From assembly GCA_964416505.1 (NCBI GenBank), contig CAYQEJ010000002.1, forward strand, positions 968 through 64,967: a stretch of DNA of 64,000 nt, in the 5' to 3' direction. Below, one piece after another: positions 1,757 to 39,409 of this stretch; within the stretch, counting starts at the first letter, position 1, and every line of letters begins with the position of its first letter. Made by a program: the position numbers and the translations under genes. Below the pieces are notes generated by a model that saw only the letters and a program-made list of their open reading frames with translations, had not been told where the DNA came from and did no database searches. The DNA is from an uncultured Gammaproteobacteria bacterium. Lineage in GTDB: Bacteria > Patescibacteriota > Microgenomatia > Levybacterales > UBA12049.

Positions 1757-2416
1757 ATGGAACAAAGTTTACTAGCAGGCGTTCTAACGCTCTCCTTAGT
1801 ACTCCTCAATCCTTCTTCAGCGTCCTCCGCGCAATCATCTCAAATAACTGAGGTTAGAGAGGTGCGGGATTATACTGTAAATCAGGGAGAAAGTCTTTCT
1901 AGTATCGCTGAAAGGGAATATGGTTCAGTTGATTTTTGGACAAATATTTGGATTGAAAATCCTTGGATTCAGAATCCAGACAGCATAGAAAAAGATTGGG
2001 TAATTAAATTATCAAAAAACGAACCTGAAAGACCAGCAACTTTGAGCGCTGATCTCAAGGCAAAACTTACAAAACAACTTCCCCAAGTAGAAAAGTCAAA
2101 CATGTCTGGTAATGAGACTCAAACTCTACCTTCTCAATCAAATTATTCAGGCGGAGTCTTAAATGAAGCTCAAATGTCATTCTTGGGAAATTGTGAATCC
2201 GGAATGACGGCAACGAGAAATAGTGGAAATGGCTATTATGGCGCATTTCAGTTTTCATATGGAACATGGCAAAGAATGAACACAGGATACGAACGAGCAG
2301 ACTTAGCTCCTCTTGAAGTTCAAAAAGATGCTGTTCAGAGACTTTTGTCTAGATCAAGCATATTTACTCAATTTCCTGGTTGTGCAGGAAAAATGCAAAA
2401 CCTCGGCCTCTTATAA
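1757..2416 (+). CDS. secreted LysM-domain protein with Rpf-type transglycosylase-like domain
   Basis: N-terminal signal peptide. LysM block YTVNQGESLSSIAEREYGSVDFW...WVIKL. C-terminal CESGMTATRNSGNGYYGAFQFSYGTWQ closely resembles the resuscitation-promoting-factor transglycosylase-like domain. A TTGACT-N17-TACACT promoter lies upstream. Confidence 0.7.
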   Translation: MEQSLLAGVLTLSLVLLNPSSASSAQSSQITEVREVRDYTVNQGESLSSIAEREYGSVDFWTNIWIENPWIQNPDSIEKDWVIKLSKNEPERPATLSADLKAKLTKQLPQVEKSNMSGNETQTLPSQSNYSGGVLNEAQMSFLGNCESGMTATRNSGNGYYGAFQFSYGTWQRMNTGYERADLAPLEVQKDAVQRLLSRSSIFTQFPGCAGKMQNLGLL

Positions 2417-2473
2417 CACCAAATTACTATAGTTCGTTGACTATACCGGGGGAGGTTGCTAGTATATTTATTC

Positions 2474-3241
2474 ATGGGAGGGATAGTAGCAGGAGCTATG
2501 TTTCTTTTATCGGTTTTAACGCCGATTAGTAAGTCGTCTCATCATGAGACTGCTCATATAAGCCCCTCAAAAGCCCCAACTCCCACGCCCACACAAATTC
2601 CCAAACCAACAGAAAAAATTTATAAAGTAGAATCTGGAGATACTTTATTTACTATCGCTGAAGAAAAACTTGGTGGGCAAAAATACTGGATAAATCTATG
2701 GAATCATAATGATTGGATTGAAGATCCAAGACTCATAAGAAGCGGTTGGGAACTTAAAATCCCTATTTCCAAACCAACCGAAGTTGAAAAACCATTAGAA
2801 AAACTCTCTACTATATATAAAGAGATAACTGATCCAAGTCCCACTCCTTCTCCGGAACCCATCAAAGAAGTGGCAGGAGTTACGGCTCCAGCGGGTTCAT
2901 TTGAAAACATATATAAAGAAGCTGGTTCTAAATATGGAGTGCCTTGGGAAATTCTTTATGGACTCCATTTAACCGAAACAGGTCTTAGGGATGGAGCAAT
3001 TTCTAGCGGTTATGGAACCGGTGCGCAGGGACCTATGCAATTCATGCCTGGAACGTGGTCGCTTTATGGAGTTGACGGAAATGGTGATGGCATAAGCGAT
3101 ATAAATAACGCTTCGGATGCTATATATGGAGCTGCAAACTACTTAGCAGCGCATGGCGGAGTAGACCTAGGGCTTAAATCATATGGAGGAGACACACAGA
3201 GCATCCTGAACGCCGCCCGTTCCCGCGGTTGGAGTCAGTAA
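2474..3241 (+). CDS. membrane-anchored LysM + lytic transglycosylase (MltB/SLT-like) protein
   Basis: TM anchor, Pro/Thr linker, LysM (YKVESGDTLFTIAEEKLGGQKYW...WELKIP), then GVPWEILYGLHLTETG...GAQGPMQFMPGTW...AANYL lytic transglycosylase motifs. ATG at 2474 sits 8 nt after TAGTAT of a TTGACT-N17-TAGTAT promoter, suggesting a leaderless start. The upstream TTG at 2456 was rejected as start. Confidence 0.65.
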   Translation: MGGIVAGAMFLLSVLTPISKSSHHETAHISPSKAPTPTPTQIPKPTEKIYKVESGDTLFTIAEEKLGGQKYWINLWNHNDWIEDPRLIRSGWELKIPISKPTEVEKPLEKLSTIYKEITDPSPTPSPEPIKEVAGVTAPAGSFENIYKEAGSKYGVPWEILYGLHLTETGLRDGAISSGYGTGAQGPMQFMPGTWSLYGVDGNGDGISDINNASDAIYGAANYLAAHGGVDLGLKSYGGDTQSILNAARSRGWSQ

Positions 3242-3242
3242 T

Positions 3243-3620
3243 TTAACTTCGGCTCAATGCTATTTCAACTGCTGCGCTTAGCAAATTATATCTTCTGAGA
3301 TCTTGTTCGCGCTCAAGTATTAGCTCACGACTTCTTTCAATTCCAACCATAAGAGGTGCTCTTCCTTGAAACTGCGCTCTAGTAAAATCTATTTCCCCAT
3401 CAGGCAACCTATTCCAGTAGTGAGATCTCAAATATTCAAAATCTGTTCCTTTAAGAGTAGCTCTTAGAATATCTCCTCCAAAGTAGTCCTGGGCTACCAC
3501 AGATGCCACTGCGCAATGACCAAGCATTGGATTTTCTGGAGTCCATAATTCAGGCGCTGAAGATGTTTCCCTGGCTACACTCACAGCTAAAGCGGTCTTA
3601 AATGCTTCTCTACTTATCAT
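3243..3620 (-). CDS. hypothetical conserved protein (125 aa)
   Basis: The ORF track's N-terminus overlaps tRNA-Gly. Start moved to the internal Met (MISREAFK...). No family assigned. Confidence 0.4.
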   Translation of the reverse strand: MISREAFKTALAVSVARETSSAPELWTPENPMLGHCAVASVVAQDYFGGDILRATLKGTDFEYLRSHYWNRLPDGEIDFTRAQFQGRAPLMVGIERSRELILEREQDLRRYNLLSAAVEIALSRS

Positions 3621-3633
3621 AGATGGGGCGGTG

Positions 3634-3705
3634 AGCGGATGACCGGATTCGAACCGGCGACCTTCTCGTTGGCAACGAGACATTCTACCACTGAACTACA
3701 TCCGC
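3634..3705 (-). tRNA. tRNA-Gly (anticodon GCC)
   Basis: The reverse complement folds as GCGGATG/CATCCGC acceptor, D-arm AGTTCAGTGGTAGAA, anticodon stem-loop CTCGT-TTGCCAA-ACGAG, T-arm GCCGGTTCGAATCCGGT. CCA is not encoded. Confidence 0.85.
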
Positions 3706-3809
3706 GCTTTGCAAGTATAGCAAAATAGCCTCAACTACTCAATTATCAAATAGTTTGAACTACTTTGTTCGGTTGACAGATTCCGTCTAAAAATGCCAAA
3801 ATAAGTTTC

Positions 3810-4382
3810 ATGAAAAAACTCGCTGTCCTTGGAGGTTTTTTTCTAGGTACTCCTCTTTTCCTTTTCCTAACACTTTCTTATCTTTTGCAAATCTCCTCTC
3901 TTAAGGGAAGTGGTGCAGTTCTATCCGAAAGCACTCAAGGAATTGCTTATGCAGCTCTTCCTCCAAACGACAATACTATCGAGGGAACAGTCGTTCAGGA
4001 AGATTCCAAAGTTGAGATCGTAAGACAATTTTTAGCTAAATATGATTCACCCTTAGCTGAATATGCTCCAGATATAATTGCTGCATCCAATCGATATGAT
4101 ATAGATTACAGATTGCTACCAGCCATAGCTATGCAAGAATCTATTGGCTGCAAGAGAATAATAAAAGATTCAAATAATTGCTGGGGTTGGGGAATCTATG
4201 GAGGAAAAGTTACTAAATTCAACAATTTTCCAGAGGCTATAGAAACAATTACAAAAACTCTCTCTACGAAATACAGAGACCATGGACTAGTAACTCCATT
4301 TGAAATAGCCAAACTTTATAATCCCCGAAATACAAATAACTGGGCTGAGAACGTTTCTCATTTTATGAACCTCCAAAAGTAA
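3810..4382 (+). CDS. secreted peptidoglycan-hydrolase-like protein (glucosaminidase-like domain), paralog 1
   Basis: Signal/TM N-terminus. Conserved block FLAKYDSPLAEYAPDIIAASNRYDIDYRLLPAIAMQESIGCK...NCWGWGIYGG shared with the downstream paralog. Family assignment is tentative. Confidence 0.45.
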   Translation: MKKLAVLGGFFLGTPLFLFLTLSYLLQISSLKGSGAVLSESTQGIAYAALPPNDNTIEGTVVQEDSKVEIVRQFLAKYDSPLAEYAPDIIAASNRYDIDYRLLPAIAMQESIGCKRIIKDSNNCWGWGIYGGKVTKFNNFPEAIETITKTLSTKYRDHGLVTPFEIAKLYNPRNTNNWAENVSHFMNLQK

Positions 4383-4523
4383 TCCTATAGTTGGGTATTG
4401 ACAAATCCTATAGTCTTTGATATACTTCGCAATTAGATCCTAAGGTGCGCCTTTCCAAATGCTCACGTTAGGATTTTTTTTGGCCTAAAAACTTAGAAAC
4501 CCTTTTTAAGTAGGCCAAAAAAT

Positions 4524-5347: not shown

Positions 5348-6238
5348 ATGGCAACAAAATCTAAAAAACAAATTAAAAAAGTTGAACCTGTCGCTTCAGA
5401 AAAGGCGGAAAAAGTTGAACCCTTTAAAAAAGGGACTGACGGGACAATTGAATTAAGACTTATTCTTCCATGGGATTTAGTTAAGAAAACCCAAGAAGTT
5501 GTTATGGAAGAAATGTCAAAAGGAGTAACGCTTCCTGGATTCCGAAAAGGAAAAGCCCCAAAAAAATTAGTTGAAGAATCTCTCAATAAATCTAGAGTAA
5601 GAGATGAAGTAATTAGACATTTACTTCCACAAGCATATGCAGAAGCTGTAAAAACCAATAACATAAAACCAATCATTGATCCAAATATTCATGTAGATGA
5701 AGCTCTTGTGGACGGAAAAGACTGGGAATTTCACGCTCTAACTTGCGAAGCTCCAGTTATTGATCTTAAAAATTACAAAGAAGTTGTGGGTAAAATAACA
5801 GCAAAAAGCAAAATTGTTGTGCCTGGGAAGGAATCTGAAGCTCCAAAATTTGAAGAAATCATTAATGCACTTCTGGAAACAGTTGATGTAAATATTCCAA
5901 ATGTATTAGTTGAAAGAGAAGCAGATAGACTTTTGTCTCAAACTCTTGATGAAATTAAAAAGCTAGGAATGACACTTGATCAATATTTAGCTTCAACAAA
6001 AAAGACAGCAGAGCAAATAAGAGCTGACTATTCCCAAAAAGCTATAAGAGATTTGAAGCTTGAATTTATACTTCAAAAAGTTGCGGAAACTGAAAAAATA
6101 TCCGTAGATGATGCTGAAATAAATAAAACTATTGAAAATGCAAAGCCAGAAGAAAAACAAAGTTTAGCAGCAAACAAATACCTTCTTGCCTCTATAATCA
6201 GGCAGCAAAAAACGCTTGATTTCTTGAAGAACCTGTGA
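5348..6238 (+). CDS. tig: trigger factor (short form, no PPIase domain)
   Basis: N-terminal ribosome-binding domain with the GFRKGKAP signature, then a C-terminal arm-domain-like region. 296 aa versus ~430 typical. Confidence 0.65.
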   Translation: MATKSKKQIKKVEPVASEKAEKVEPFKKGTDGTIELRLILPWDLVKKTQEVVMEEMSKGVTLPGFRKGKAPKKLVEESLNKSRVRDEVIRHLLPQAYAEAVKTNNIKPIIDPNIHVDEALVDGKDWEFHALTCEAPVIDLKNYKEVVGKITAKSKIVVPGKESEAPKFEEIINALLETVDVNIPNVLVEREADRLLSQTLDEIKKLGMTLDQYLASTKKTAEQIRADYSQKAIRDLKLEFILQKVAETEKISVDDAEINKTIENAKPEEKQSLAANKYLLASIIRQQKTLDFLKNL

Positions 6239-6246
6239 TAAATTAG

Positions 6247-6894
6247 GTGCGATTTATGCAACATTCAAAGCTAAAAAGCGGCAAAAAAGAGCCGAAACAA
6301 TATATCACCGAAAATCCTTTTGAATCCCTTTTGGGAGTAGGAAAAGGCGTAGTTGATTCACTAAAAGAGCAGGCTGGAAAAGACGCTGTATACGATGCCT
6401 GGGATTCAATTATAAATAAAGCTCCAAGAACACACGAAGGCCATGGCGAGCAGGAAATGCATGCTGGTGAGGAAGTAGACATAAACAATCATGAAAAAAA
6501 TACGCACAAGGAAGCTGGCAACAATTATCATAGAGACATTATTCATACATCTGAGAGAAGCGCCTCCTATGAAAGCCGGGAAGTAGCTGTTAAGGTACAG
6601 GAAATTCTTATTGAAATTAAACAGCTCGCCAACAGCTCAGCTATGCTTAAGAAAAAGATCGATGTTGTGGCTATCGAGCAAATGGGAGAAAATCCCGGAA
6701 AATATCAACTCAATTTCTTGGAGCAAATGCTTACATGGATAAGAGAAGCCAGAATGACCGTAGAGGATTCTTTGGCATGGTTTAGCGCACTTAGAAGCAA
6801 GAAAGCAGCACGCCAGTATGGTTCACTTGCTAAAAAACACGGTGCATCATTTATGCTTTCAGGCGAACGCGCACCAGTTACACAAACAGGCTAA
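6247..6894 (+). CDS. hypothetical protein (215 aa)
   Basis: ORF with charged N-terminus. No motif recognised. Confidence 0.4.
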   Translation: MRFMQHSKLKSGKKEPKQYITENPFESLLGVGKGVVDSLKEQAGKDAVYDAWDSIINKAPRTHEGHGEQEMHAGEEVDINNHEKNTHKEAGNNYHRDIIHTSERSASYESREVAVKVQEILIEIKQLANSSAMLKKKIDVVAIEQMGENPGKYQLNFLEQMLTWIREARMTVEDSLAWFSALRSKKAARQYGSLAKKHGASFMLSGERAPVTQTG

Positions 6895-6938
6895 TTTTCT
6901 TATTGACTGATTAAGTAATAATTGGTAATATTTTATTT

Positions 6939-7056
6939 ATGCAAAAAATTAAAAATCTTATTCTCGTCATTCTTAACTCCTTGAAGGGAGGGAAGTCTGA
7001 CGCGTAAATAAGATAGATACGCAAAAAGACAAGCCTCCCAAACGGGAGGTTTTTTT
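6939..7056 (+). promoter_or_regulatory. leader-peptide + terminator module, copy 1 (candidate attenuator)
   Basis: A TTGACT-N17-TAATAT promoter lies at 6902-6930. A 22-codon ORF MQKIKNLILVILNSLKGGKSDA* (6939-7007) is rich in Ile/Leu/Val. An upstream GGGAGGG could pair with the CCTCCC arm of the downstream terminator GCCTCCC-AAAC-GGGAGGT-T7 (7033-7056). Confidence 0.35.
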
Positions 7057-7069
7057 GTGGTTAAAAATT

Positions 7070-7429
7070 ATGAGAGACATATACGATTCATCAATACATC
7101 ATGCAATAAAAGGTCCGGTTCCTCCTGCTCTTTGGAGAAGTTATGAAATAGGAGATAACGGCAGAGCTGAAATTTACACTCTTGGAGATACGCTTATTAC
7201 CAAAGAAACCCGATTTGTAGGCAGTGAAAGGAGACCAAGTTTTAGGTTCGAAGTAGACGGAGGTACTTTAAAGGATAAATTATCAGCTGCTAATTGGCTA
7301 GCTGAAAGTATTGCGAGAGACAAAGATAGATATAGAATTTCTCAGCCTGGAACTCAGGTTTTCCCAGATAGAGTTGTTTTCAAATCAGGAACATATTTAG
7401 AAGACACTACAGAAGGGGGAGGTGAGTAG
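7070..7429 (+). CDS. hypothetical protein
   Basis: ORF directly after the terminator. ATG at 7070 (MRDIY...). Locally elevated GC. Confidence 0.4.
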   Translation: MRDIYDSSIHHAIKGPVPPALWRSYEIGDNGRAEIYTLGDTLITKETRFVGSERRPSFRFEVDGGTLKDKLSAANWLAESIARDKDRYRISQPGTQVFPDRVVFKSGTYLEDTTEGGGE

Positions 7430-7431
7430 TT

Positions 7432-7641
7432 ATGGAAGGAAATAGAAGATTTGGACAAGACCCAGGATTTAGCGGTGGACCGGGATTCGAAAGGCCTCGG
7501 CCAAAACAACCATTTGCTGGAGATTTAACGATCGGTCCAAACGGAAGAGTAATTCAGCAAGGGCAGGAAAGAAGATCCAGTGGTCCCGTACCCGGAACGT
7601 CAGCCAGAAAACACAGAACATCTGGCCAGCGCGGCAGATAA
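7432..7641 (+). CDS. hypothetical small basic Gly/Pro/Arg-rich protein
   Basis: 69-aa ORF starting 3 nt after the previous stop. GC about 48%. Confidence 0.3.
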   Translation: MEGNRRFGQDPGFSGGPGFERPRPKQPFAGDLTIGPNGRVIQQGQERRSSGPVPGTSARKHRTSGQRGR

Positions 7642-7671
7642 ATATTTTATTAAAAAAGGAGGTGATTAATT

Positions 7672-7899
7672 ATGACACAAAGAACAGTTTTTAGTAGATT
7701 ACAAAGCGTTGCAGAACATCGCGAAGCCCAAGCATTGGGAGTGCAAAGTGCTCATTTAGGAGAAGCAGTATTGCCACCTGCAAATTACTTAAGAGGTCCT
7801 TATTTGGACCAAATAGCAAGAACACATCCCGAAAGACACGAACAAGCAACTCAATTAGTTGAAAAAGTGGTTGGTGGATCCAGGGAAAGAATGGGCTAG
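7672..7899 (+). CDS. hypothetical protein
   Basis: Consensus RBS AAAGGAGGTG, 7 nt spacer, then ATG. Confidence 0.45.
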   Translation: MTQRTVFSRLQSVAEHREAQALGVQSAHLGEAVLPPANYLRGPYLDQIARTHPERHEQATQLVEKVVGGSRERMG

Positions 7900-7934
7900 A
7901 AAAAAATTTTTAAAAAGGAGGTGTATTAACATAG

Positions 7935-8198
7935 TCAAAAGAATTTTTAGATCCAATAAATCAACTTAATAAGGCTAGAACAAATGAGGAGATTAGAGAT
8001 GCTCTCGGTGCAATAAAAGAAGGCAGAAATTCTCTTTATAACCTAGTAGATATTTCCTATGAAATTTTACTAGAGCAGGAACAAATTGAAGTTGAGGTTC
8101 CAGCATATGGAACTCATCCACAGAGAAAAAGATACGCAAGTGGTTTTCCTAAAGGTGAATGGAATCATAATTTTGGAGTAGATAAAGCCAAAGAATAA
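7935..8198 (+). CDS. 88-codon ORF lacking a canonical start (possible frameshifted gene or pseudogene)
   Basis: Consensus RBS GGAGGTG (7917-7923) has the same spacing as the upstream gene but points at ATAG (7931-7934). The coding-like open frame SKEFLDPINQLNKARTNEEIRDALGAIKEGRNS...GVDKAKE* begins right after that TAG. Deleting one base would give ATG TCA. Confidence 0.3.
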   Translation, partial: SKEFLDPINQLNKARTNEEIRDALGAIKEGRNSLYNLVDISYEILLEQEQIEVEVPAYGTHPQRKRYASGFPKGEWNHNFGVDKAKE

Positions 8199-8205
8199 TA
8201 GTTTG

Positions 8206-8279
8206 TGGGCCCGACAAGAGTCGAACTTGTGACCTTTACAATGTCAATGTAACGCTCTAACCAACTGAGCTACGAGCCC
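8206..8279 (-). tRNA. tRNA-Val (anticodon GAC)
   Basis: Reverse complement GGGCTCGTAGCTCAGTTGGTTAGAGCGTTACATTGACATTGTAAAGGTCACAAGTTCGACTCTTGTCGGGCCCA forms a cloverleaf with anticodon loop TTGACAT. Confidence 0.85.
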
Positions 8280-8372
8280 GATGCGCTTATTTTAACAGAA
8301 TGGTATCCTAGGTTCAATTATATATCCTAGAGTATTTGACCTGAAGCTAAAACTAAGCTATAATTCTGCGCT

Positions 8373-9530
8373 ATGACAAGAGATTCTGAAAGACAGATGG
8401 GAATGTATGGTCAGGCGCCATCGGAAATTGGCGCAGTAAGAATCCGTTTTGGAACTGGATTATCAGCTCCAGTTGTTAGAGATGCAGAAATCTATATAAG
8501 AGAATTGGTGGCTGGACAAGCTACACCCGAGCAAAGACCAGATTCTCTTAATACACCAGAAGCAGAAGCTTTCCTAACAGAAGGAAGACCTGAATTTGGT
8601 GGCAGAAGTATTTTTGCAACACTACGGCACATTGTGGGAGAGGAACTTAAAAGAGGCACTTTCACACCAGGCGCAGCAGTTCCTCCTCTAGAGCTTGTGC
8701 AGACCATTTCTCGAAAAAAAGAAGGAAGAAAATCACCTGACGACACATGGGTAGGTAGAAATCATTTTTACGGAATTGGCGTACCCAGGCAAGTACTTAA
8801 TCAAATACTTTCAGAAGTACCCACTCAGCCAAGACAAAAAGGATCAGAAATACTTACTACTTATGATAGGCAAGCAGTGGAGGAACGCTTACAAAAATAC
8901 TTTGCCCAAACACCAAGAGTAAACTCTAGAACAGGACTTTTTGAAGATGAAAGCGGAGTTTGGGTCACGCGTGCGTATTTAACAGCTAGATATGGAATTT
9001 CACATTTTCTTCTAAACACTTACCTTACAGATGTCTTAACCAGACCAGGACTAAACAAAGGAAAAGACGCAACGCTTTATAATTTAAGTCAGGCAAAAGA
9101 AAATCTTAAAGGATTAATTCAAACTCCATCAGAGACAGGCGGAAGAGGAAGCCATGTTGAAAAAGGCGTAGATTGGATAAATGCAGAAGAAATCGCAAGA
9201 AGACTTCATCTTTCTCCCTCAACAGTAAAAGCTGCACTTACTGACGAAAGGTTCAAAACCGTTAGAGGAAAGAATGGAAAAGATTCAAAATGTTATGACT
9301 TTGGTAGAGCCAAGAAATTACTGGAACCTTTAACTTCTCTTCCGGTGGCAAATCCTACAAGTAACGGCAGGATGGTTACTGGAAGCTTTTTAGCAGAAAG
9401 ATACCCTTTAAGCATACCTACAATTGCAAATAGATTAAAAACTATTGGCGTAAGAGGCAGAGGAATTGGCGGAAGACACGCAATCCTTTATCCGCTCCAT
9501 GAAGCAGAAAAAATTCTTGCAGAAAAATAA
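8373..9530 (+). CDS. hypothetical protein with three tandem ~50-aa HTH-like repeats
   Basis: Promoter TTGACC-N17-TATAAT ends 8 nt before the ATG. C-terminal half holds three collinear modules (VWVTRAYLTARYGISHF..., DWINAEEIARRLHLSPSTVKAAL..., RMVTGSFLAERYPLSIPTIANRL...) resembling DNA-binding HTH units. Elevated GC. Confidence 0.5.
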   Translation: MTRDSERQMGMYGQAPSEIGAVRIRFGTGLSAPVVRDAEIYIRELVAGQATPEQRPDSLNTPEAEAFLTEGRPEFGGRSIFATLRHIVGEELKRGTFTPGAAVPPLELVQTISRKKEGRKSPDDTWVGRNHFYGIGVPRQVLNQILSEVPTQPRQKGSEILTTYDRQAVEERLQKYFAQTPRVNSRTGLFEDESGVWVTRAYLTARYGISHFLLNTYLTDVLTRPGLNKGKDATLYNLSQAKENLKGLIQTPSETGGRGSHVEKGVDWINAEEIARRLHLSPSTVKAALTDERFKTVRGKNGKDSKCYDFGRAKKLLEPLTSLPVANPTSNGRMVTGSFLAERYPLSIPTIANRLKTIGVRGRGIGGRHAILYPLHEAEKILAEK

Positions 9531-9548
9531 ACTGATATAATAGTTCAA

Positions 9549-10121
9549 ATGACTAGACAGGAAGCCTGGGAAGAATTAAATAAAAATATTAAAAATCCAA
9601 ATCTAATTAAGCATCATCTCGCATGTGAGGCAATAATGATCTCACTTTGCAAAAAATTAGTTCCGAATGCTGATGAGATTACCATAGGTAAATGGGGACT
9701 GACTGGACTTCTACATGATGTAGATTACGAACTCACCCGTGAGACACCGGAAAAACATGGAATTGTTTCATCAGAAATACTTAAAGATAACATAGACAGC
9801 GATATAATCTATGCAATTCGAGCACATAATTACACTAGAAACGGTGCGGAAGCTCCCAAATCCTTCATGGACTGGAGTATGTATACATGTGACGAATTAT
9901 CAGGTCTTATAATTGCAGCAACTCTAATTCATCCAGATAAAAAATTAGCTTCTATCGACGTCCCATTTATTTTAAAAAGATTTAACGAACCTAGTTTTGC
10001 AAAAGGAGCAGATAGAAACCAAATCAAGATGTGTGAATCAGAGCTTAAAATTCCTCTTGCGGAATTTGTACAAATTGCGCTTTCTGCAATGCAAAAAATT
10101 TCTACCGATTTAAATCTTTGA
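9549..10121 (+). CDS. HD-domain phosphohydrolase-family protein
   Basis: H..H (HHLACEA) and HD (LLHDVD) metal-binding motifs of the HD superfamily. Confidence 0.6.
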   Translation: MTRQEAWEELNKNIKNPNLIKHHLACEAIMISLCKKLVPNADEITIGKWGLTGLLHDVDYELTRETPEKHGIVSSEILKDNIDSDIIYAIRAHNYTRNGAEAPKSFMDWSMYTCDELSGLIIAATLIHPDKKLASIDVPFILKRFNEPSFAKGADRNQIKMCESELKIPLAEFVQIALSAMQKISTDLNL

Positions 10122-10153
10122 CATTTATTCTAAATTTAACCTAAACTAAACTT

Positions 10154-10372
10154 ATGAGCGAAAATAAATACGAGTTGGTTACTAAATCCCGAAAAGACAT
10201 AATTACAAATAATTTTCTAGGTGGCCTTGCGTGGGGAGTGGGAGTCACATTAGGACTTACTATTCTTTTTGGAATCATAGCTTTTGTTTCTTCTCACATT
10301 AATTTCGTACCGATTGTTGGAGAATTTGTCTCGAAAGTTTTGAATTACGTACTTACAAATAGAGTAAGATAG
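10154..10372 (+). CDS. small membrane protein (72 aa)
   Basis: Single hydrophobic segment GGLAWGVGVTLGLTILFGIIAFV. Confidence 0.4.
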   Translation: MSENKYELVTKSRKDIITNNFLGGLAWGVGVTLGLTILFGIIAFVSSHINFVPIVGEFVSKVLNYVLTNRVR

Positions 10373-10418
10373 TCCCAAACAATTGCTAATTTGAGGCTAT
10401 ACTGCTAAAATCCGATTC

Positions 10419-12173
10419 ATGAATAATATTGATCTCTCCAGCATAAGACATTCCACTGCTCATCTTCTGGCAGCTGCTATTTTAAAACTCTATCCTGATA
10501 CGAAATTAACTATTGGCCCAGCAATTGAAAATGGTTTTTATTATGATTTAGATTTTTCAAATCCAATTTCAGAAAATGATCTCCCTAAAATTGAAGAAGA
10601 AATGAGAAGAATACTCCCAAGCTGGAATTCTTTTTCACATAGAGAAGTTTCCGATCAAGAAGCAAAGGAATTCTATAAAAATAATCAATACAAACTAGAG
10701 CTAATAGATGAAATTGTAGAAAAGGGTGAAAAAATAACTTTTTATAAAGCGGGAGAATTTGAAGATCTTTGCCGCGGCGGACATAGCGAGAACCCCTCAG
10801 AAGAAATTGGCGCATTTAAGCTTCTTTCTATCGCTGGTGCCTATTGGAGAGGAAGCGAAAAAAACAAAATGCTCACTCGTATTTACGGAACTGCTTTTTC
10901 AACTCAGAAAGAACTAGATGAGTACTTAGTAATGCTCGAAGAAGCAAAGAAAAGAGATCATAAAAAATTAGGTTTAGAATTAGATCTTTTCATGTTTCAT
11001 GAAACATCTCCAGGAATGCCATACTGGCTACCTAAAGGATTTGCTCTATATAATTCGCTTCTTAATTTTTCAAGAGAAGTTCACAAGAAATATAGATATC
11101 AAGAAATCGCAACTCCAATTCTAAACAAAAAAGATCTATATATGACTTCAGGTCACTGGTCTCATTATAGAGATGATATGTTCCTGTCTCCAATGTCTTT
11201 CATAAGAGATGATTCAAAAGAACTTCTGGAGGGTGGAGAAGTATTCGGCATCAAACCAATGAACTGTCCAAATGCTATGAATGTATTTTCGATGACAATT
11301 AGATCTTATAAAAATCTGCCTCTTCGTTTTTCAGAAACTTCAGCTCTCCATAGATTTGAGCCTTCAGGCACACTAAATGGACTTTTCAGAGCAAGAGAAT
11401 TCCACCAAGACGACGCTCATATTTTCCTCATGACTTCTCAAGTAGAAGATGAATTTCAAAAAATAATGGAGATGATCGAAGAACTCTATGGCGCATTCAA
11501 TCTTTCATATAGGCTTAGATTTGGTACAAGACCTGAAAACTTCATGGGCGAAAGTAAAGATTGGGACGAAGCCGAAGATGCATTAAAATCAGTGCTTGAT
11601 AAATCGGGCAAAGAATACGTAACTGAAGAAGGAGAAGGAGCATTCTACGGACCAAAGATAGATATTCTTATGAAAGATTCACTAGGACGTGAATGGCAAA
11701 CAGGAACAATTCAATTAGATTTCCAACAACCCAAAAATTTCAAACTAGAATATATTGATGAAAGCGGAAAAACTACTACCCCTGTTGTTCTTCATAGAGC
11801 CCTATTTGGCTCATTTGAAAGATTTCTAGGAATTCTTTTAGAACATTTTGCAGGTATACTCCCAATTTGGCTTTCTCCTATTCAAGTAATAATTCTACCA
11901 ATAGCAGATAAGCATAATGATTTCTCTCAAAATTTAGTAAATGAGCTTAGAAAAAATGGTATCCGAGCAGAGGTTGATTCTCGAAGTGAGAGACTTCAAC
12001 TTAAAATAAGAGAAGCGACTTTGCAAAAGATTCCATATTTAGGTATAATAGGGGACAAAGAAATTGAAAAAAATTCAGTTTCAGTTAGAGCTTTAGATGG
12101 GGAAGATTTAGGAAGTTTAAATCTTTCTCATTTTTTAGAAAAGCTAAAAGATCAAATTGATAAAAAAGTCTAA
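10419..12173 (+). CDS. thrS: threonyl-tRNA synthetase (short form, no N-terminal TGS domain)
   Basis: Class II aaRS core with ThrRS editing/catalytic motifs (HSTAHLLAAAI..., FHQDDAHIF, anticodon-binding C-terminus). Confidence 0.9.
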   Translation: MNNIDLSSIRHSTAHLLAAAILKLYPDTKLTIGPAIENGFYYDLDFSNPISENDLPKIEEEMRRILPSWNSFSHREVSDQEAKEFYKNNQYKLELIDEIVEKGEKITFYKAGEFEDLCRGGHSENPSEEIGAFKLLSIAGAYWRGSEKNKMLTRIYGTAFSTQKELDEYLVMLEEAKKRDHKKLGLELDLFMFHETSPGMPYWLPKGFALYNSLLNFSREVHKKYRYQEIATPILNKKDLYMTSGHWSHYRDDMFLSPMSFIRDDSKELLEGGEVFGIKPMNCPNAMNVFSMTIRSYKNLPLRFSETSALHRFEPSGTLNGLFRAREFHQDDAHIFLMTSQVEDEFQKIMEMIEELYGAFNLSYRLRFGTRPENFMGESKDWDEAEDALKSVLDKSGKEYVTEEGEGAFYGPKIDILMKDSLGREWQTGTIQLDFQQPKNFKLEYIDESGKTTTPVVLHRALFGSFERFLGILLEHFAGILPIWLSPIQVIILPIADKHNDFSQNLVNELRKNGIRAEVDSRSERLQLKIREATLQKIPYLGIIGDKEIEKNSVSVRALDGEDLGSLNLSHFLEKLKDQIDKKV

Positions 12174-14400: not shown

Positions 14401-14513
14401 ATGTTTTTTATGATTAAAGGTTTGAATTTTGGTTTTTACTTTACACACCCTACGGGGAGGTAACGTATTGCCAAAATAAAAGGCAATAAGCCTCCCAAAC
14501 GGGAGGTTTTTTT
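14401..14513 (+). promoter_or_regulatory. Phe-rich leader peptide + rho-independent terminator (candidate pheA attenuator), module copy 2
   Basis: Leader ORF atg ttt ttt atg att aaa ggt ttg aat ttt ggt ttt tac ttt aca cac cct acg ggg agg taa (MFFMIKGLNFGFYFTHPTGR*, 5 Phe). GGGGAGG just before the stop can pair with the CCTCCC arm of terminator GCCTCCC-AAAC-GGGAGG-T7 (14490-14513). A hairpin TTGCC-aaaataaaa-GGCAA lies between. The terminator segment is identical to the 7033-7056 copy. Confidence 0.45.
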
Positions 14514-14521
14514 GTGTTTAT

Positions 14522-15727
14522 ATGGGAAGTTTAGAACGAAGAATACAACAAAAAAAATTAGGAACCAGAGAAATAGTACAGCCAAGAATGATTGCATGGC
14601 TTGGTCCTCGCGGAAATTTCACCCAACTCGCCCTAGAACAATTAGCTACTAGGGGCTCTCGGTATGATGATGCAATTCCCATGGAGGCAAGATCAATTGG
14701 AGAAATGTTTGATCTCGTAGAATCCGGGGCCTGTGAACTAGCTCTTGTTCCTTACGAAAACTCATCTGATGGACCAGTAGGCGAATCGCACAGAAATTTG
14801 CACGATAGATCTGTTCAGATTGTCGATGAAACTGTACTTGGGATAGAACAAGTGCTTTATATGAAGCGCGGCGTATTCGTAGGAGATATACAAGTTGTTG
14901 CATCTAAAGACTCTGCACTTGGCCAATGCGATTCACATATTTCTCAAGTTTTCGGAGAACATATCAAAAGACTTCCTACAAAAAGCACAGGTGAAGCAGT
15001 TGCAATGGCCGCAGAGGATCCAAGAATTGCCGCAATCGGCAGCAGTATTTCTGCCACAGCTCAGGGCTTAGACAAACTTTTAATAGCAACTAGAAATTTC
15101 CAAGACAATCCAGGAAACGCAACTACATTTACGATTATTCAAAAACCTGGCGAATTGCCGGCGCCTACTGGAAACGACAAAACCACATTTATCTTAACTA
15201 TTCCTGATCAAACAGGCAGTCTTCACAAAGCGCTTATGGAACTTTCGGCAAGAGGAGTAAATCTTAACAAAATTAAGTCTATGCAGAAAGCAGATGGAGG
15301 AATGAGATTCTTGATGTCTATAGACGGTCATATTACTGATCCAAATGTACACTCAATTCTTATGACTCTTAGAGCTCAGGAAATGAAAATTCTAGGTTCA
15401 TACCCGAGAGCAGATTATACACCCGCGAGAACAGGAAGAGCTTACGCTATGGATTATGCGGTTAAAAGAATTAAGGATGAAGCACAAAACGGAGATCAGG
15501 CAACGGATCAAAGAACCTTAGTCTTTACCGTAAAAAACGAGCCTGGATCTTTATTTAAAGCGCTTGGAGTATTTGCAGAAGCAGGAGTAAGTCTGAAAAA
15601 AATTGATTCCCAGCCAAGCGGAGAATTCGAAGAATACATCTTTTATGTAGCATTTAAGCAATCTCTAACATCCGATGACTTAATTACCCAATTAGGAAAA
15701 CACACTGATTATTTAAAACAAATTTAA
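14522..15727 (+). CDS. pheA: prephenate dehydratase with two C-terminal ACT domains
   Basis: PDT-domain motifs IAWLGPRGNFTQLA and LALVPYENSSDGPV, followed by two ACT-like modules (TFILTIPDQTGSLHKALMEL...; LVFTVKNEPGSLFKALGVFAEAGVSL...). Confidence 0.75.
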   Translation: MGSLERRIQQKKLGTREIVQPRMIAWLGPRGNFTQLALEQLATRGSRYDDAIPMEARSIGEMFDLVESGACELALVPYENSSDGPVGESHRNLHDRSVQIVDETVLGIEQVLYMKRGVFVGDIQVVASKDSALGQCDSHISQVFGEHIKRLPTKSTGEAVAMAAEDPRIAAIGSSISATAQGLDKLLIATRNFQDNPGNATTFTIIQKPGELPAPTGNDKTTFILTIPDQTGSLHKALMELSARGVNLNKIKSMQKADGGMRFLMSIDGHITDPNVHSILMTLRAQEMKILGSYPRADYTPARTGRAYAMDYAVKRIKDEAQNGDQATDQRTLVFTVKNEPGSLFKALGVFAEAGVSLKKIDSQPSGEFEEYIFYVAFKQSLTSDDLITQLGKHTDYLKQI

Positions 15728-39323: not shown

Positions 39324-39374
39324 ATATACGCCAACCCCCGCCTCGCATTAGAGAACTTATTTCTAAACCTATAG
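39324..39374 (+). repeat. holB 3'-tail copy B (encodes IYANPRLALENLFLNL* in frame after the cassette-1 stop)
   Basis: 43/47 nt identical to holB 38663-38710. Followed by TTTAGCCTCA and a TATAAT box. Confidence 0.7.
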
Positions 39375-39409
39375 TTTATTTTTAGCCTCACTTCTGATAT
39401 AATTTCGCG

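What the first reader, a model, noticed from the sequence alone, without database searches (positions are those of the whole stretch)
7070..9530. Higher-GC island of unknown small proteins with perfect GGAGGTG ribosome-binding sites, a tRNA-Val and a triple-HTH-repeat protein
GC rises to roughly 45-48% against ~33% background. Four consecutive small ORFs (7070, 7432, 7672, 7935) lack recognisable domains. Two carry the identical RBS and spacer architecture AAAGGAGGTG-N7-start, in contrast to the leaderless TATAAT-ATG pattern of neighbouring housekeeping genes. The island also embeds tRNA-Val(GAC). It ends with a 385-aa protein whose C-terminal half is three tandem ~50-aa HTH-like modules, a phage regulator or antirepressor flavour. 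This is a candidate integrated element or a small system of unknown function.
Basis: seen in the sequence. Interest (0 to 1): 0.6.

Follow-up and report, generated by a model that had tools for sequence, protein, structure and literature searches.

The report
Starvation-switched small-protein operon, not an island
The flagged "island" is a native but fast-changing stretch of a Levybacteria (CPR) chromosome: four tiny genes that appear to be switched on by a classical leader-peptide attenuator sensing leucine/isoleucine/valine shortage, next to a conserved tRNA-Val gene and a separately transcribed DNA-binding protein built from four repeated winged-helix modules.

Summary
GC is 40% against 36% background, not 45-48 against 33. 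ORFs at 7070, 7432 and 7672 are real. The 7935 frame has no start codon. The 385-aa protein has four ~70-aa winged-helix repeats, not three ~50-aa ones.

The integrated-element reading fails. Synonymous codon usage and GC3 match the genome, so the extra GC comes from amino-acid composition. tRNA-Val(GAC) holds this position across Levybacteria. There is no integrase and no att repeat.

It has a promoter, a leaderless 22-codon mini-ORF (MQKIKNLILVILNSLKGGKSDA), a hairpin with covariation, and an intrinsic terminator with a predicted alternative antiterminator. An identical terminator follows a Phe/Tyr-rich mini-ORF in front of prephenate dehydratase at 14410. In relatives, aromatic-rich leaders precede DAHP synthase and shikimate kinase. 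The small ORFs are therefore most likely an attenuator-controlled operon induced by branched-chain amino-acid (BCAA) starvation.

ORF2 is conserved at this position in every related locus examined that carries it; 10 related clusters were found in 5.8 billion. The other small ORFs and the repeat protein turn over quickly. What the proteins do biochemically is unknown.

The parts
6903..6931 (+). Promoter of the leader transcript: TTGACT, 17 nt, TAATAT (TG-extended). The -10 box ends 7 nt before ATG 6939, which is the genome's usual leaderless geometry.
   Evidence: 9/12 match. The -35 box, the -10 box and the start codon are aligned in 9 relatives.
6939..7007 (+). Leaderless 22-codon leader ORF, MQKIKNLILVILNSLKGGKSDA*. 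Six consecutive Leu/Ile/Val codons lie at 6957-6974.
   Evidence: The 15 orthologous leader sequences are all exactly 22 codons long and carry L-I-[ILV]-V-[IL]-L.
6955..7014 (+). Hairpin P1 (anti-antiterminator). It lies entirely inside the leader ORF. Its apical stem is CUCC/GGAG, with loops that vary between lineages.
   Evidence: Minimum free energy (MFE) -43.5 kcal/mol for 6939-7060, z -5.9. On 16 sequences 95% of cells are paired and 4 pairs show compensatory changes; 0/500 shuffles reach the observed covariation (the alignment was fitted to the model).
6986..7039 (+). Predicted antiterminator: GGGAGG (6986-6991) pairs with CCUCCC (7034-7039) and encloses a middle hairpin.
   Evidence: This is the MFE fold of the nascent RNA when nt 1-36/42 are masked to mimic a stalled ribosome. 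It appears in all 5 BCAA-type leaders tested and in the pheA leader. The core helix is 92% paired but invariant, so there is no covariation.
7031..7057 (+). Intrinsic terminator: a 9-bp stem (AAGCCUCCC / GGGAGGUUU), loop AAAC, and a U7 run.
   Evidence: The 29-nt sequence is identical at 14489-14517, upstream of prephenate dehydratase.
7070..7429 (+). ORF1, 119 aa, acidic. Predicted core is four beta strands plus a helix. Known relatives are few.
   Evidence: 51% identical homolog at the same place in L002. Only 2 database hits. AlphaFold2 (AF2) core pLDDT is about 80 and the overall mean is 63; no significant fold match. dN/dS 0.32 against strain L084, where it carries a premature TGA.
7432..7641 (+). 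ORF2, 69 aa, pI 11.9. Gly+Arg+Pro+Ala make up 51% and Leu+Ile+Val only 7%. It is the conserved core gene of the locus.
   Evidence: 63-80% identical in L001, L002, L003 and L030 at the same position. 10 related clusters in 5.8 billion proteins. Found directly after DUF5660 plus the leader in L078 and L079. dN/dS 0.02-0.26. Composition.
7672..7899 (+). ORF3, 75 aa. It is preceded by AAAGGAGGTGAT, which by my recollection of the 16S rRNA 3' tail is a 12-nt complement to it; the tail is not in the window and this was not tested.
   Evidence: No homolog in genus-level relatives. Intact in the 94%-identical strain L084, dN/dS 0.33.
7914..8197 (+). ORF4 remnant or atypical gene. SD AAAGGAGGTG at 7914-7923, then an 87-codon open frame (7935-8197) with no canonical start codon.
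   Evidence: The same start-less junction is present in strain L084. The C-terminal 47 aa are 68% identical (E 4e-25) to a 70-aa ORF with a normal SD and ATG at the same position in L099.
8205..8279 (-). tRNA-Val(GAC). It is convergent with the small-ORF operon and lies 7 nt after the ORF4 stop.
   Evidence: Found between DUF5660 and HD/ThrRS in 23 of the 24 related loci scanned.
8336..8364 (+). Own promoter of the 385-aa gene: TTGACC, 17 nt, TATAAT, then a leaderless ATG at 8373.
   Evidence: 11/12 match. L080 has the same TTGACC-17-TATAAT architecture upstream of its ortholog.
8373..8732 (+). 385-aa protein, N-terminal helical domain (residues 1-120; residues 108-122 form a disordered linker).
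   Evidence: AF2 model, mean pLDDT 86.9. Residues 11-111 are 43-47% identical to P0039 and P0042, which carry other HTH arrays and are solitary chromosomal CPR genes.
8733..9530 (+). 385-aa protein, four tandem ~70-aa modules (residues 121-186, 187-257, 258-325, 326-385). Each is a beta-hairpin, a helix-turn-helix, a beta-hairpin wing and a helix.
   Evidence: Internal BLAST between repeats: E 1e-4, 7e-4 and 0.012. AF2 secondary structure. 86 homologs with 2-11 repeats. Local Foldseek matches to BldC, Xis, the pSK1 Par DNA-binding domain and AlpA-like proteins reach TM 0.55-0.64, but E > 1.

Best explanation
The segment is a native, rapidly evolving part of a Candidatus Levybacteria (CPR/Microgenomates) chromosome. 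It is not an inserted element. It holds two independent units that flank a conserved tRNA-Val gene.

Unit 1, 6903-8197. A promoter starts a leaderless transcript whose first 22 codons encode a leader peptide with six consecutive Leu/Ile/Val codons. When charged Leu/Ile/Val tRNAs are plentiful, or when the leader is not translated, hairpin P1 or the ribosome sitting at the stop codon keeps GGGAGG (6986-6991) unavailable. The terminator at 7031-7057 then forms and transcription stops after about 118 nt. When those tRNAs are scarce, the ribosome stalls on the LILVIL codons and opens P1. GGGAGG pairs with CCUCCC (7034-7039), the terminator cannot form, and RNA polymerase reads into ORF1-ORF4. Three of the four small ORFs carry unusually long Shine-Dalgarno sequences, so each is translated independently. 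Their products are small, hydrophilic and poor in branched-chain amino acids. ORF2, the conserved core, is a very basic, probably disordered protein. My best guess is that it binds nucleic acid or the ribosome during starvation. ORF4 has lost its start codon and may be decaying.

Unit 2, 8336-9530. This gene has its own strong leaderless promoter. It encodes a DNA-binding protein with an N-terminal helical domain and four covalently linked Xis/MerR-like winged-helix modules. It probably reads an array of direct repeats head-to-tail.

Shown: the anatomy, conservation, synteny, codon usage, RNA covariation in P1, and the match between leader composition and downstream gene in sister elements. 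Inferred: regulation by stalling, and every protein function.
For: Native origin:
- GC3 and synonymous codon usage equal the background.
- The order TF, DUF5660, [gap], tRNA-Val, HD, DUF5665, ThrRS is shared by Levybacteria loci.
- No att repeats.

Attenuator:
- The promoter, the leaderless ATG and a mini-ORF of exactly 22 codons with an invariant BCAA run are present in the 15 orthologous leaders.
- The RNA is strongly structured, z -5.9.
- P1 has 4 covarying pairs and 95% pairing; 0/500 shuffles reach this.
- An antiterminator fold is predicted in all six leaders once the 5' arm is masked.
- A sister element at 14410-14517 has a Phe/Tyr-rich leader (MIKGLNFGFYFTHPTGR) and the identical terminator directly before prephenate dehydratase.
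- The covariance model finds about 45 further elements in relatives at E < 1e-3, nearly all on the coding strand.
- Aromatic-rich leaders precede DAHP synthase, shikimate kinase and pheA. A BCAA-rich leader precedes an M20 peptidase. A class IV (BCAT-like) aminotransferase lies in the same gap in L009 and L074.
- First ORFs after BCAA leaders have 14.8% LIV and 6.3% FYW. Those after aromatic leaders have 20.9% LIV and 2.5% FYW (p 0.007 and 0.001). The window background is 24.5% LIV.

Operon: gaps between the ORFs are 2, 30 and 35 nt. There is no terminator and no excess of promoter-like sites inside.

Real genes: dN/dS is 0.02-0.33. ORF2 has 36 invariant columns among 5 sequences.

Repeat protein.
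Against: - No expression data exist. Stalling-dependent read-through is inferred only from sequence and folding.
- The antiterminator helix is invariant, so it has no covariation support. Its inner helices differ between lineages.
- The P1 covariation was counted on an alignment fitted to the model.
- The BCAA codons themselves form the 5' arm of P1, so RNA pairing alone could explain their conservation.
- The regulated genes have no demonstrable link to branched-chain amino-acid metabolism.
- ORF1 has no Shine-Dalgarno sequence.
- ORF4 lacks a start codon, and ORF1 is truncated in a sister strain. That fits weak selection.
- The composition test uses homologous, non-independent sequences. Many were truncated to their first 70 residues, and one leader was misclassified.
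- Most internal cistrons in the window have no SD. 'Internal cistron' therefore does not by itself explain the strong SDs.
Confidence: 0.6

Rival explanations
1. Integrated mobile element or prophage remnant inserted at tRNA-Val. On this reading the small ORFs and the repeat protein are foreign cargo, which would explain the higher GC and the different RBS style.
For: Gene content next to the tRNA differs between close relatives. The 385-aa gene is absent from L001, L002, L003 and L030, and L006 has an IS200/RAYT-like gene at that spot. Distant relatives of the repeat protein lie in one-directional ORFan arrays with SNF2/methyltransferase giants, and some are fused to FokI or HindVP nuclease domains.
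Against: GC3 and codon usage are native. There is no integrase, no direct repeat of the tRNA end and no terminal inverted repeats. The 385-aa protein has no hit in 50,697 phage records, and there are no PHROG or PADLOC hits. The tRNA, the leader and ORF2 are syntenic across the genus. The 385-aa gene has a positional ortholog in L080 at only 33% identity, which points to long residence with fast divergence rather than recent arrival. It also uses the host's leaderless promoter style.
Confidence: 0.06
2. The conserved 6939-7057 element is a stand-alone gene: either a trans-acting small RNA or a 22-aa peptide with its own terminator. It would not be a switch. The small ORFs downstream would be expressed by leaky read-through or from undetected promoters.
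For: The element has its own promoter and terminator and a fixed length of 118-123 nt. Its structure is conserved with covariation. Attenuator-derived RNAs and leader peptides can act in trans in Sinorhizobium (abstracts of PMC6614838 and PMC7298713, listed).
Against: No promoter is evident between the terminator and the first structural gene, which starts 13-45 nt after the U-run in the relatives. Leader amino-acid composition tracks the pathway of the downstream gene in sister elements. The alternative antiterminator pairing is available in every copy. The two readings do not exclude each other.
Confidence: 0.15
3. The locus is an arms-race locus (defence, counter-defence or host interaction). 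The small proteins and the multi-HTH protein would evolve fast because they meet phage or host molecules, and the attenuator would be incidental.
For: Divergence is extreme relative to the neighbours. The positional ortholog of the 385-aa protein is 33% identical, whereas the housekeeping neighbours in the closest loci (L001-L006, L030) are much more conserved: ThrRS 81-83%, TF about 70%. Small ORFs are gained and lost between species of one genus. The repeat family associates with restriction/modification-type domains.
Against: No match to any PADLOC model apart from one marginal HTH hit. There is no enzymatic or toxin-like domain. dN/dS is below 1 with no sign of positive selection. ORF2 is well conserved.
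Confidence: 0.12
4. Most of the small ORFs are decaying or non-functional reading frames in a plastic intergenic zone, and only tRNA-Val and the flanking genes matter.
For: ORF4 has no start codon in two strains. ORF1 has a premature stop in strain L084. ORF1, ORF3 and ORF4 have almost no relatives.
Against: All four frames have strong codon periodicity. By rough arithmetic from base composition, an 87-codon frame with no stop is unlikely by chance at 36% GC (about 0.002). dN/dS is 0.15-0.33 between strains. ORF2 is conserved in 15 genomes. ORF4 has a 68%-identical homolog with a proper start. The long SDs are conserved in front of non-homologous ORFs.
Confidence: 0.07

Closest known systems
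Leader-peptide (ribosome-mediated) transcription attenuator of the Corynebacterium glutamicum ilvBNC operon (PMC11857589; Morbach et al. 2000 as cited there)
   Same: A leader ORF that starts at or next to the transcription start without a ribosome-binding site. A leader peptide rich in Ile/Val/Leu (MTIIRLVVVTARRLP there, MQKIKNLILVILNSLKGGKSDA here). Three competing hairpins: anti-antiterminator, antiterminator and terminator.
   Different: Here the controlled genes are small ORFan proteins rather than BCAA biosynthesis enzymes. The element is compact (about 118 nt against 292 nt). The host is a CPR bacterium. Nothing has been tested experimentally.
Enterobacterial pheA/pheL attenuator (Rfam RF01859, Phe_leader)
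   Same: This is the best Rfam match for 6945-7059: 36.4 bits, full model length, with a nearly identical terminator AAGCCUCCC-loop-GGGAGG-U run. The window's second element, at 14410, does carry Phe/Tyr codons and does precede pheA (prephenate dehydratase).
   Different: The score is below the family's gathering threshold (55 bits), and most of the upstream helix pairs are non-canonical in the alignment. The regulatory codons are Leu/Ile/Val. The leader is leaderless. The similarity is most likely convergent and driven by the terminator.
Leaderless polycysteine short ORFs acting as cysteine-responsive attenuators in mycobacteria (bioRxiv 10.1101/834739; title and abstract seen)
   Same: [quoted passage not shown]
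   Different: Different amino acid and different phylum. Here an intrinsic terminator with an alternative antiterminator is evident. I did not read that paper's mechanism in detail.
Xis / BldC / MerR-N / AlpA-type winged helix-turn-helix proteins (Pfam HTH_17, HTH_36)
   Same: Each repeat of the 385-aa protein is predicted as HTH plus a beta-hairpin wing plus a helix. Local structural matches are BldC, mycobacteriophage Pukovnik Xis, the pSK1 Par DNA-binding domain and AlpA-like phage proteins (TM 0.55-0.64). From my own knowledge, Xis and BldC bind DNA as head-to-tail arrays of monomers.
   Different: Here four modules are covalently linked in one chain, each preceded by an extra beta-hairpin (consensus LPxVDxxtGxYxDxxGxxW), behind a separate N-terminal domain. 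Pfam scores for this protein are below threshold. Foldseek E-values are not significant.
tRNA-linked genomic islands and integrative elements
   Same: Variable gene content directly next to a tRNA gene.
   Different: No integrase, no att repeat, native codon usage, and the variable genes lie on both sides of the tRNA.

Membership tests
Leader-peptide transcription attenuator | Short ORF at the 5' end of the transcript, upstream of the structural genes | tested here: met
   ORF 6939-7007 starts 7 nt after the -10 box. It is 22 codons long in the 15 orthologous leaders.
Leader-peptide transcription attenuator | Run of codons for the sensed amino acid(s) in the leader ORF | tested here: met
   Six consecutive Leu/Ile/Val codons at 6957-6974; the pattern L-I-[ILV]-V-[IL]-L is invariant.
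Leader-peptide transcription attenuator | Intrinsic terminator between the leader ORF and the first structural gene | tested here: met
   Terminator at 7031-7057: 9-bp stem plus U7. It is conserved in all copies.
Leader-peptide transcription attenuator | Mutually exclusive antiterminator whose formation depends on ribosome position | tested here: inconclusive
   It is the predicted MFE fold in 6 of 6 leaders when the 5' arm is masked. The core helix is 92% paired but invariant, so there is no covariation.
Leader-peptide transcription attenuator | Downstream genes are functionally tied to the sensed amino acid | tested here: inconclusive
   Not shown for ORF1-4, whose function is unknown; they are only LIV-poor. 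Met for sister elements: aromatic leaders precede pheA, DAHP synthase and shikimate kinase.
Leader-peptide transcription attenuator | Read-through increases when the cognate charged tRNA is limiting | not testable with these tools
   This needs transcript mapping or reporter assays.
Rfam RF01859 Phe_leader | Score at or above the gathering threshold (55 bits) | tested here: not met
   36.4 bits.
tRNA-targeting integrative element / genomic island | Integrase or recombinase gene | tested here: not met
   No such ORF or domain in 6895-9548.
tRNA-targeting integrative element / genomic island | Direct repeat of the tRNA 3' end (attL/attR) bounding the segment | tested here: not met
   The repeat finder on 6000-10500 shows no repeat involving 8205-8279.
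tRNA-targeting integrative element / genomic island | Composition or codon usage deviating from the host | tested here: not met
   GC3 is 0.16-0.33, like the background. Codon-usage distance lies inside the random-set distribution.
tRNA-targeting integrative element / genomic island | Variable presence among close relatives | tested here: met
   ORF1, ORF3, ORF4 and the 385-aa gene are patchy. The leader, ORF2 and the tRNA are stable.
Xis/MerR/AlpA-type winged HTH (Pfam HTH_17 / HTH_36) | Profile match above the curated cut-off | tested here: not met
   For this protein the best scores are 11-18 bits, against cut-offs of 20-30. HTH_36 is matched at E <= 0.001 by 10 of 40 homologs.
Xis/MerR/AlpA-type winged HTH (Pfam HTH_17 / HTH_36) | Fold: helix-turn-helix followed by a beta-hairpin wing | tested here: met
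   AF2 model, pLDDT 86.9, shows this in each repeat. Local matches to BldC, Xis, Par and AlpA have E > 1.
Phage antirepressor (Ant / P22_AR_N / Bro-N) | Antirepressor N- or C-terminal domain | tested here: not met
   No hit in this protein. P22_AR_N is found in 1 of 40 homologs only, below cut-off.
Known anti-phage defence systems (PADLOC) | Match to a system component model | tested here: not met
   Only a marginal HTH-type hit (mad1, E 0.004, residues 268-301); nothing for the four small ORFs.

The most novel reading that the evidence does not exclude
Levybacteria, and perhaps other CPR bacteria, run a regulon of compact, leaderless leader-peptide attenuators with aromatic, branched-chain and Thr-rich classes. 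These switch on the few retained amino-acid genes. They also switch on families of fast-evolving, strongly translated small proteins that are depleted in the sensed amino acid. ORF2 and its neighbours would then be a lineage-specific starvation response of an auxotrophic symbiont, for example ribosome- or nucleic-acid-binding factors or effectors aimed at the host. Separately, the 385-aa protein would define an undescribed family of covalently linked Xis-like winged-helix arrays. Relatives of that family are fused to FokI-type nuclease, methyltransferase and SNF2 domains, which suggests modular recognition of long DNA sites.
Probability: 0.3. Interest if true: 0.7.

Novelty: new variant of a known kind. 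Interest (0 to 1): 0.5.

Why it matters
CPR bacteria are uncultivated, mostly auxotrophic symbionts, and a large share of their genes are small ORFans with no clue to function. A readable regulatory tag changes that. A leader peptide whose codon run names the amino acid being sensed lets ORFan proteins be assigned to a physiological condition from sequence alone. The proposal is directly testable with metatranscriptomes or reporter fusions.

In a genome where first genes are leaderless, these small genes sit behind a translated leader and carry long Shine-Dalgarno sequences. That is not a full explanation, because most other internal genes in the window have no SD.

I found no paper linking leader-peptide attenuation with the Candidate Phyla Radiation in the searchable library. 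That library is incomplete.

The repeat protein adds a documented tandem winged-helix array family: 86 representatives among 1.84 billion proteins.

Tried and rejected
- Domain searches of the four small ORFs gave nothing in Pfam, PHROGs, PADLOC or NCBIfam. The PDB sequence search with the ORF2 profile gave only chance hits.
- The 385-aa protein: the word-indexed search found only itself. The exact-contig look-up found nothing. PDB sequence search gave nothing. tblastn against phages gave no match. A profile scan of viral contigs could not be run because no stretch was conserved enough.
- I suspected the other 385-aa ORF at 40124-41281 might be a paralog. It is not; BLASTP E is 5.7.
- I considered the conserved GGAGGTGATTAATT-ATG motif as a recombination or cassette junction. 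I rejected this because, by my recollection of the 16S rRNA 3' tail (not tested), AAAGGAGGTGAT is its 12-nt complement, which would make the motif an extended Shine-Dalgarno plus an AT-rich spacer.
- I considered 'internal cistrons need an SD' as a full explanation of the RBS contrast. It is only partly tenable, since most internal genes in the window have no SD.
- The ORF1 structure has a moderate-confidence beta-4 plus alpha core. The weak PUR/Whirly/PC4/PprA-like matches (E 0.2-0.9) are too weak to use.
- There are no tandem DNA repeats that could serve as an obvious binding array for the repeat protein. Two ATCCTAG copies at about 8305 and 8325 were read by eye and not followed up.
- An Rfam search of the other GC-rich patch (2400-4500) found only tRNA-Gly. 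No 16S start is present at the window end.

Full report
**Where the window comes from.**
- The genes around the finding are trigger factor (5348-6238), a DUF5660 protein (6247-6894), an HD-domain protein (9549-10121), a DUF5665 protein (10154-10372) and threonyl-tRNA synthetase (10419-12173).
- A ThrRS-anchored scan of one genome per species returned 77 loci. The closest are 81-83% identical in ThrRS. Those with informative titles are labelled Candidatus Levyibacteriota, Microgenomates or Patescibacteria.
- The order glucosaminidase, tRNA-Leu, TF, DUF5660, [gap], HD, DUF5665, ThrRS recurs in these loci. The window is therefore an ordinary chromosomal stretch of a Levybacteria (CPR) genome.

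**Checking the observation.**
- GC of 7070-9530 is 40.2%, against 35.7% for the window. 400-nt peaks reach 44-45% and there is a dip to 34% around 7801-8200. Only 3% of windows of equal size are as GC-rich.
- Three small ORFs with ATG starts exist at 7070, 7432 and 7672.
- The fourth, '7935', is an 87-codon open frame. It begins right after a TAG and has no in-frame ATG, GTG or TTG.
- None of the four matches any Pfam, PHROG, PADLOC or NCBIfam model.
- AAAGGAGGTG occurs twice. After 7 nt it is followed once by ATG 7672 and once by ATA 7931, which is out of frame.
- tRNA-Val(GAC) is at 8205-8279 on the minus strand.
- The 385-aa protein has four tandem repeats of about 70 residues. Repeat-to-repeat BLAST E-values are 1e-4, 7e-4 and 0.012.

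**Is it foreign DNA?** The evidence says no.
- All five reading frames have GC3 of 0.16-0.33, the same as housekeeping neighbours (0.20-0.25). Codon positions 1 and 2 are GC-rich instead. The island is GC-rich because its proteins are rich in Gly, Arg, Pro and Ala and poor in hydrophobic residues.
- The synonymous codon-usage distance of the island to the rest of the window is 0.051. Random gene sets of the same size give 0.058 +/- 0.010, and 74% of them are at least as far.
- tRNA-Val(GAC) lies between DUF5660 and HD/ThrRS in 23 of the 24 related loci scanned, on either strand; the one exception is a short contig with Ns in this stretch.
- There is no integrase, no repeat of the tRNA end and no terminal inverted repeat.
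- The 385-aa protein has no tblastn hit in 50,697 phage records.

**What is conserved and what is not.** tblastn of the island proteins against the related loci gave the following.
- ORF2 is at the same position in L001, L002, L003 and L030 at 63-80% identity.
- ORF1 is found only in L002, at 51% identity.
- ORF3, ORF4 and the 385-aa protein are found in none of them.
- The gap between DUF5660 and HD ranges from 0.55 to 6.3 kb across the phylum.

Wider searches added more.
- A profile search with ORF2 found 10 related clusters among 5.8 billion, all 63-70 aa. In the two whose context I fetched, the gene directly follows DUF5660.
- Between genomes ORF2 has dN/dS 0.02-0.26. ORF1 and ORF3 give 0.32 and 0.33 against a 94%-identical strain, L084. 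These are real genes under purifying selection.
- In L084, ORF1 carries a premature TGA. The ORF4 start region lacks an ATG there too.
- The C-terminal 47 residues of ORF4 are 68% identical (E 4e-25) to a 70-aa ORF with a normal SD and ATG at the same position, just before tRNA-Val, in metagenome locus L099. ORF4 therefore belongs to a real family, and its copy here has lost its canonical start.
- Every small ORF in the equivalent region of relatives has an extended SD of the type AAAGGAGGTGA plus 5-6 A/T plus ATG. This holds even where the coding sequences are unrelated. From my own recollection of the 16S rRNA 3' end, AAAGGAGGTGAT is a 12-nt complement to it. That would explain why the 'spacer' looks conserved. 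I did not test this against a 16S sequence.

The 175 nt between DUF5660 and ORF1 are more conserved than the flanking genes. They contain:
- a promoter, TTGACT-17-TAATAT at 6903-6931;
- an ATG exactly 7 nt after the -10 box, the same leaderless geometry seen at about 26 of 72 gene starts in the window;
- a 22-codon ORF (6939-7007), MQKIKNLILVILNSLKGGKSDA;
- a long hairpin, P1 (6955-7014);
- an intrinsic terminator (7031-7057).

The supporting evidence is as follows.
- The RNA folds at -43.5 kcal/mol, z = -5.9 against shuffles.
- In nine related loci plus six metagenome loci retrieved with a DNA pattern, the ORF is always exactly 22 codons. It always has six consecutive Leu/Ile/Val codons, while the first six codons vary freely.
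- On 16 sequences aligned to a covariance model, 95% of cells in P1 and the terminator are paired. Four pairs show compensatory changes, for example U-A in 8 sequences and C-G in 6. None of 500 shuffles reaches the observed covariation. The caveat is that the alignment was fitted to the model.
- I masked the first 36-42 nt to mimic a ribosome stalled on the LILVIL codons and left the 3' terminator arm untranscribed. The minimum-energy fold then pairs GGGAGG (6986-6991) with CCUCCC (7034-7039), the 5' arm of the terminator. This happens in all five BCAA-type leaders tested and in the pheA leader.
- That helix is invariant, so it has no covariation support.

**Independent support from sister elements.**
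- The same 29-nt terminator sequence occurs at 14489-14517. It is preceded by a leaderless mini-ORF, MIKGLNFGFYFTHPTGR, and followed 5 nt later by a gene that NCBIfam scores as prephenate dehydratase.
- The covariance model built from the BCAA leaders finds this element at 50 bits. It also finds about 45 more elements (E < 1e-3) in the related loci, nearly all on the coding strand.
- Their mini-ORFs fall into classes.
  - Aromatic-rich leaders (for example ..NYFWFYFTS..) lie upstream of DAHP synthase (L010, L025, L057), shikimate kinase (L008) and prephenate dehydratase (the window).
  - A Thr-rich leader (MKKYIFIIETTTTTQFFWEC) lies upstream of a HAD phosphatase, which is followed by ThrRS.
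  - BCAA-rich leaders follow DUF5660; in L023 one precedes an M20 peptidase.
- A class IV (BCAT-like) aminotransferase lies in the same DUF5660-tRNA-Val gap in L009 and L074.
- This match between leader composition and downstream pathway is the signature of ribosome-mediated attenuation.
- The best Rfam match of 6945-7059 is the enterobacterial Phe leader: 36.4 bits, below the 55-bit threshold, and driven by the terminator.

**A further consistency check.**
- First ORFs behind BCAA-type leaders contain 14.8% Leu+Ile+Val and 6.3% Phe+Tyr+Trp.
- First ORFs behind aromatic-type leaders contain 20.9% and 2.5% (Mann-Whitney p 0.007 and 0.001).
- The window average is 24.5% Leu+Ile+Val. ORF2 has 7% (z = -3.5).
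- Proteins made during shortage of an amino acid being poor in that amino acid fits the model.
- The samples include homologs, many were truncated to their first 70 residues, and one leader was misclassified, so this is supportive only.

**Operon structure.** ORF1-ORF4 are separated by 2, 30 and 35 nt. There is no terminator-like site and no excess of promoter-like sites inside. ORF1 begins 13 nt after the U-run. Extended SDs of 8 nt or more are rare in the window. They occur at ORF2, ORF3, the ORF4 remnant, the 80-aa ORF after pheA (15741-15983), and a Gly/Pro-rich ORF at the window end. Most other internal genes have no SD. The strong SDs therefore mark this class of small genes rather than internal cistrons in general.

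**The 385-aa protein.**
- It has its own promoter (TTGACC-17-TATAAT, 11/12 match) and a leaderless start.
- The word-indexed search found only itself. An exhaustive HMMER search of 1.84 billion representatives found 86 relatives at E <= 1e-3. They are 264-1967 aa long and have 1-11 matched stretches.
- The repeat consensus is LPxVDxxtGxYxDxxGxxW, then an HTH, then GRxxxGxxxxLY, then a helix.
- Among the top 40 relatives, the repeats weakly match HTH_36. Partner domains include SNF2/Helicase_C, methyltransferases, ResIII, a FokI cleavage domain and HindVP.
- A full-length ortholog, P0012 (414 aa, 33% identity, E 9e-66), sits in locus L080 in the same place: TF, DUF5660, five small SD-led ORFs, tRNA-Val on the minus strand, P0012, DUF5665, ThrRS. 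It has the same promoter architecture. The gene is therefore old at this site and diverging very fast. It is missing in L001, L002, L003 and L030. In L006 an IS200/RAYT-like gene (identified by eye from its sequence) sits in its place.
- The N-terminal domain (residues 11-111) is 43-47% identical to solitary chromosomal CPR proteins that carry other HTH arrays.
- More distant repeat relatives lie in one-directional ORFan arrays with methyltransferase/SNF2 giants, which look like mobile elements.
- AlphaFold2 with 16 sequences gives mean pLDDT 86.9. It shows a helical N-domain, a disordered linker (108-122) and four modules, each a beta-hairpin, HTH, wing hairpin and helix.
- Foldseek finds only single-module local matches to BldC, Pukovnik Xis, the pSK1 Par DNA-binding domain and AlpA/Tor-inhibitor-like phage proteins (TM 0.55-0.64, E > 1).
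The gene itself behaves as a resident chromosomal gene.

**Mechanism proposed.** Unit 1 (6903-8197) is an operon controlled by a ribosome-mediated attenuator that responds to charged Leu/Ile/Val tRNA. Unit 2 (8336-9530) is an independently transcribed multi-winged-helix DNA-binding protein. tRNA-Val between them is native. The operon has no terminator before the convergent tRNA gene, and the ORF4 stop is 7 nt from the tRNA 3' end. The same arrangement occurs in L002, L003, L006, L030 and L080. Read-through would therefore run antisense into tRNA-Val. Whether that matters is unknown.

The biochemical roles of ORF1-4 remain unknown. ORF2 is very basic (pI 11.9), and 51% of it is Gly, Arg, Pro or Ala. 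My best guess is a nucleic-acid- or ribosome-binding starvation protein. The ORF1 model (core pLDDT about 80) has only insignificant matches to beta-4 plus alpha nucleic-acid binders.

**Comparison with what is known.** Leader-peptide attenuation is textbook. Leaderless leader ORFs are documented in Corynebacterium, where the ilvBNC leader is MTIIRLVVVTARRLP (PMC11857589), and in mycobacteria (bioRxiv 10.1101/834739). This is therefore a variant of a known kind. What differs is the host lineage; no paper linking leader-peptide attenuation and the Candidate Phyla Radiation was found in the searchable library. The element is also compact, and its cargo is fast-evolving ORFan small proteins rather than biosynthetic enzymes.

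**Verdict.** The finding as an 'integrated element' is not supported. The locus is a native, plastic, probably starvation-regulated small-protein operon plus a tandem winged-helix protein. Interest is moderate (0.5).

Noticed in passing
window 14410-14517 (and 14522-15727, 15741-15983): A second attenuator-like element. It has a leaderless mini-ORF, MIKGLNFGFYFTHPTGR, and a terminator identical to the one at 7031-7057, directly before prephenate dehydratase. An 80-aa ORF with an 11-nt SD follows pheA. Its homolog directly follows the aromatic leader in L002 (13898-14164), where the leader is not followed by pheA.
   Followed up: partly
related loci L004-L057 (e.g. L010:7760-7877, L025:20610-20726, L008:12989-13100, L026:4106-4227, L028:9522-9620): A family of about 45 leader-plus-terminator elements in Levybacteria. 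The mini-ORFs are aromatic-, BCAA- or Thr-rich and match the downstream genes (DAHP synthase, shikimate kinase, a HAD phosphatase before ThrRS, M20 peptidase).
   Followed up: partly
window 38772-42887: A cluster of four ORFan proteins (183, 208, 385 and 199 aa) with the same GC1/GC2-rich, Leu/Ile/Val-poor composition as the island. Each has its own TATAAT-N6/7-ATG leaderless promoter. The three scanned had no significant NCBIfam match (the 199-aa ORF was not scanned). The 385-aa ORF there is unrelated to the one at 8373.
   Followed up: partly
window 63638-63943 (-): A 101-aa Gly/Pro-rich low-complexity ORF (MDDQNNPTVGTPDPNAGGMPP...) on the minus strand, preceded by the extended SD GGGAGGTGATTAT-ATG. 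This local patch has 53% GC.
   Followed up: no
window, all gene starts: About 26 of 72 gene starts have a -10 box ending 5-10 nt before the start codon, i.e. leaderless mRNAs. Only 4-5 have an SD of 8 nt or more. Most operon-internal genes have neither signal.
   Followed up: partly
L084:1-901 (Logan SRR32548951), aligned to window 7040-7940: A 94%-identical strain in which ORF1 carries TGG to TGA at codon 76. The ORF4 start region reads CTAG instead of ATAG, so neither strain has an ATG there.
   Followed up: yes
L006:5389-6063 (-): A 224-aa IS200/RAYT-like (Y1 transposase-like, judged by eye from the sequence) gene sits between tRNA-Val and the HD gene, exactly where the window has the 385-aa gene. 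This suggests the spot is an insertion hot spot.
   Followed up: no
window 8297-8335: Two copies of ATCCTAG about 20 nt apart lie between the divergent tRNA-Val and 385-aa-gene promoters. They could be an operator. They are not obviously conserved in L080.
   Followed up: no
L100:6001-8862 and L101:1685-4012: Distant relatives of the tandem winged-helix repeat protein lie in long one-directional arrays of ORFans next to 1,270-1,280-aa methyltransferase or SNF2 proteins. These contigs look like phage or plasmid DNA.
   Followed up: partly
window 2801-3800: Another patch at 44-46% GC around tRNA-Gly (3633-3705, minus strand). A 146-aa minus-strand ORF overlaps the tRNA. A permissive Rfam search found nothing besides the tRNA.
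   Followed up: partly
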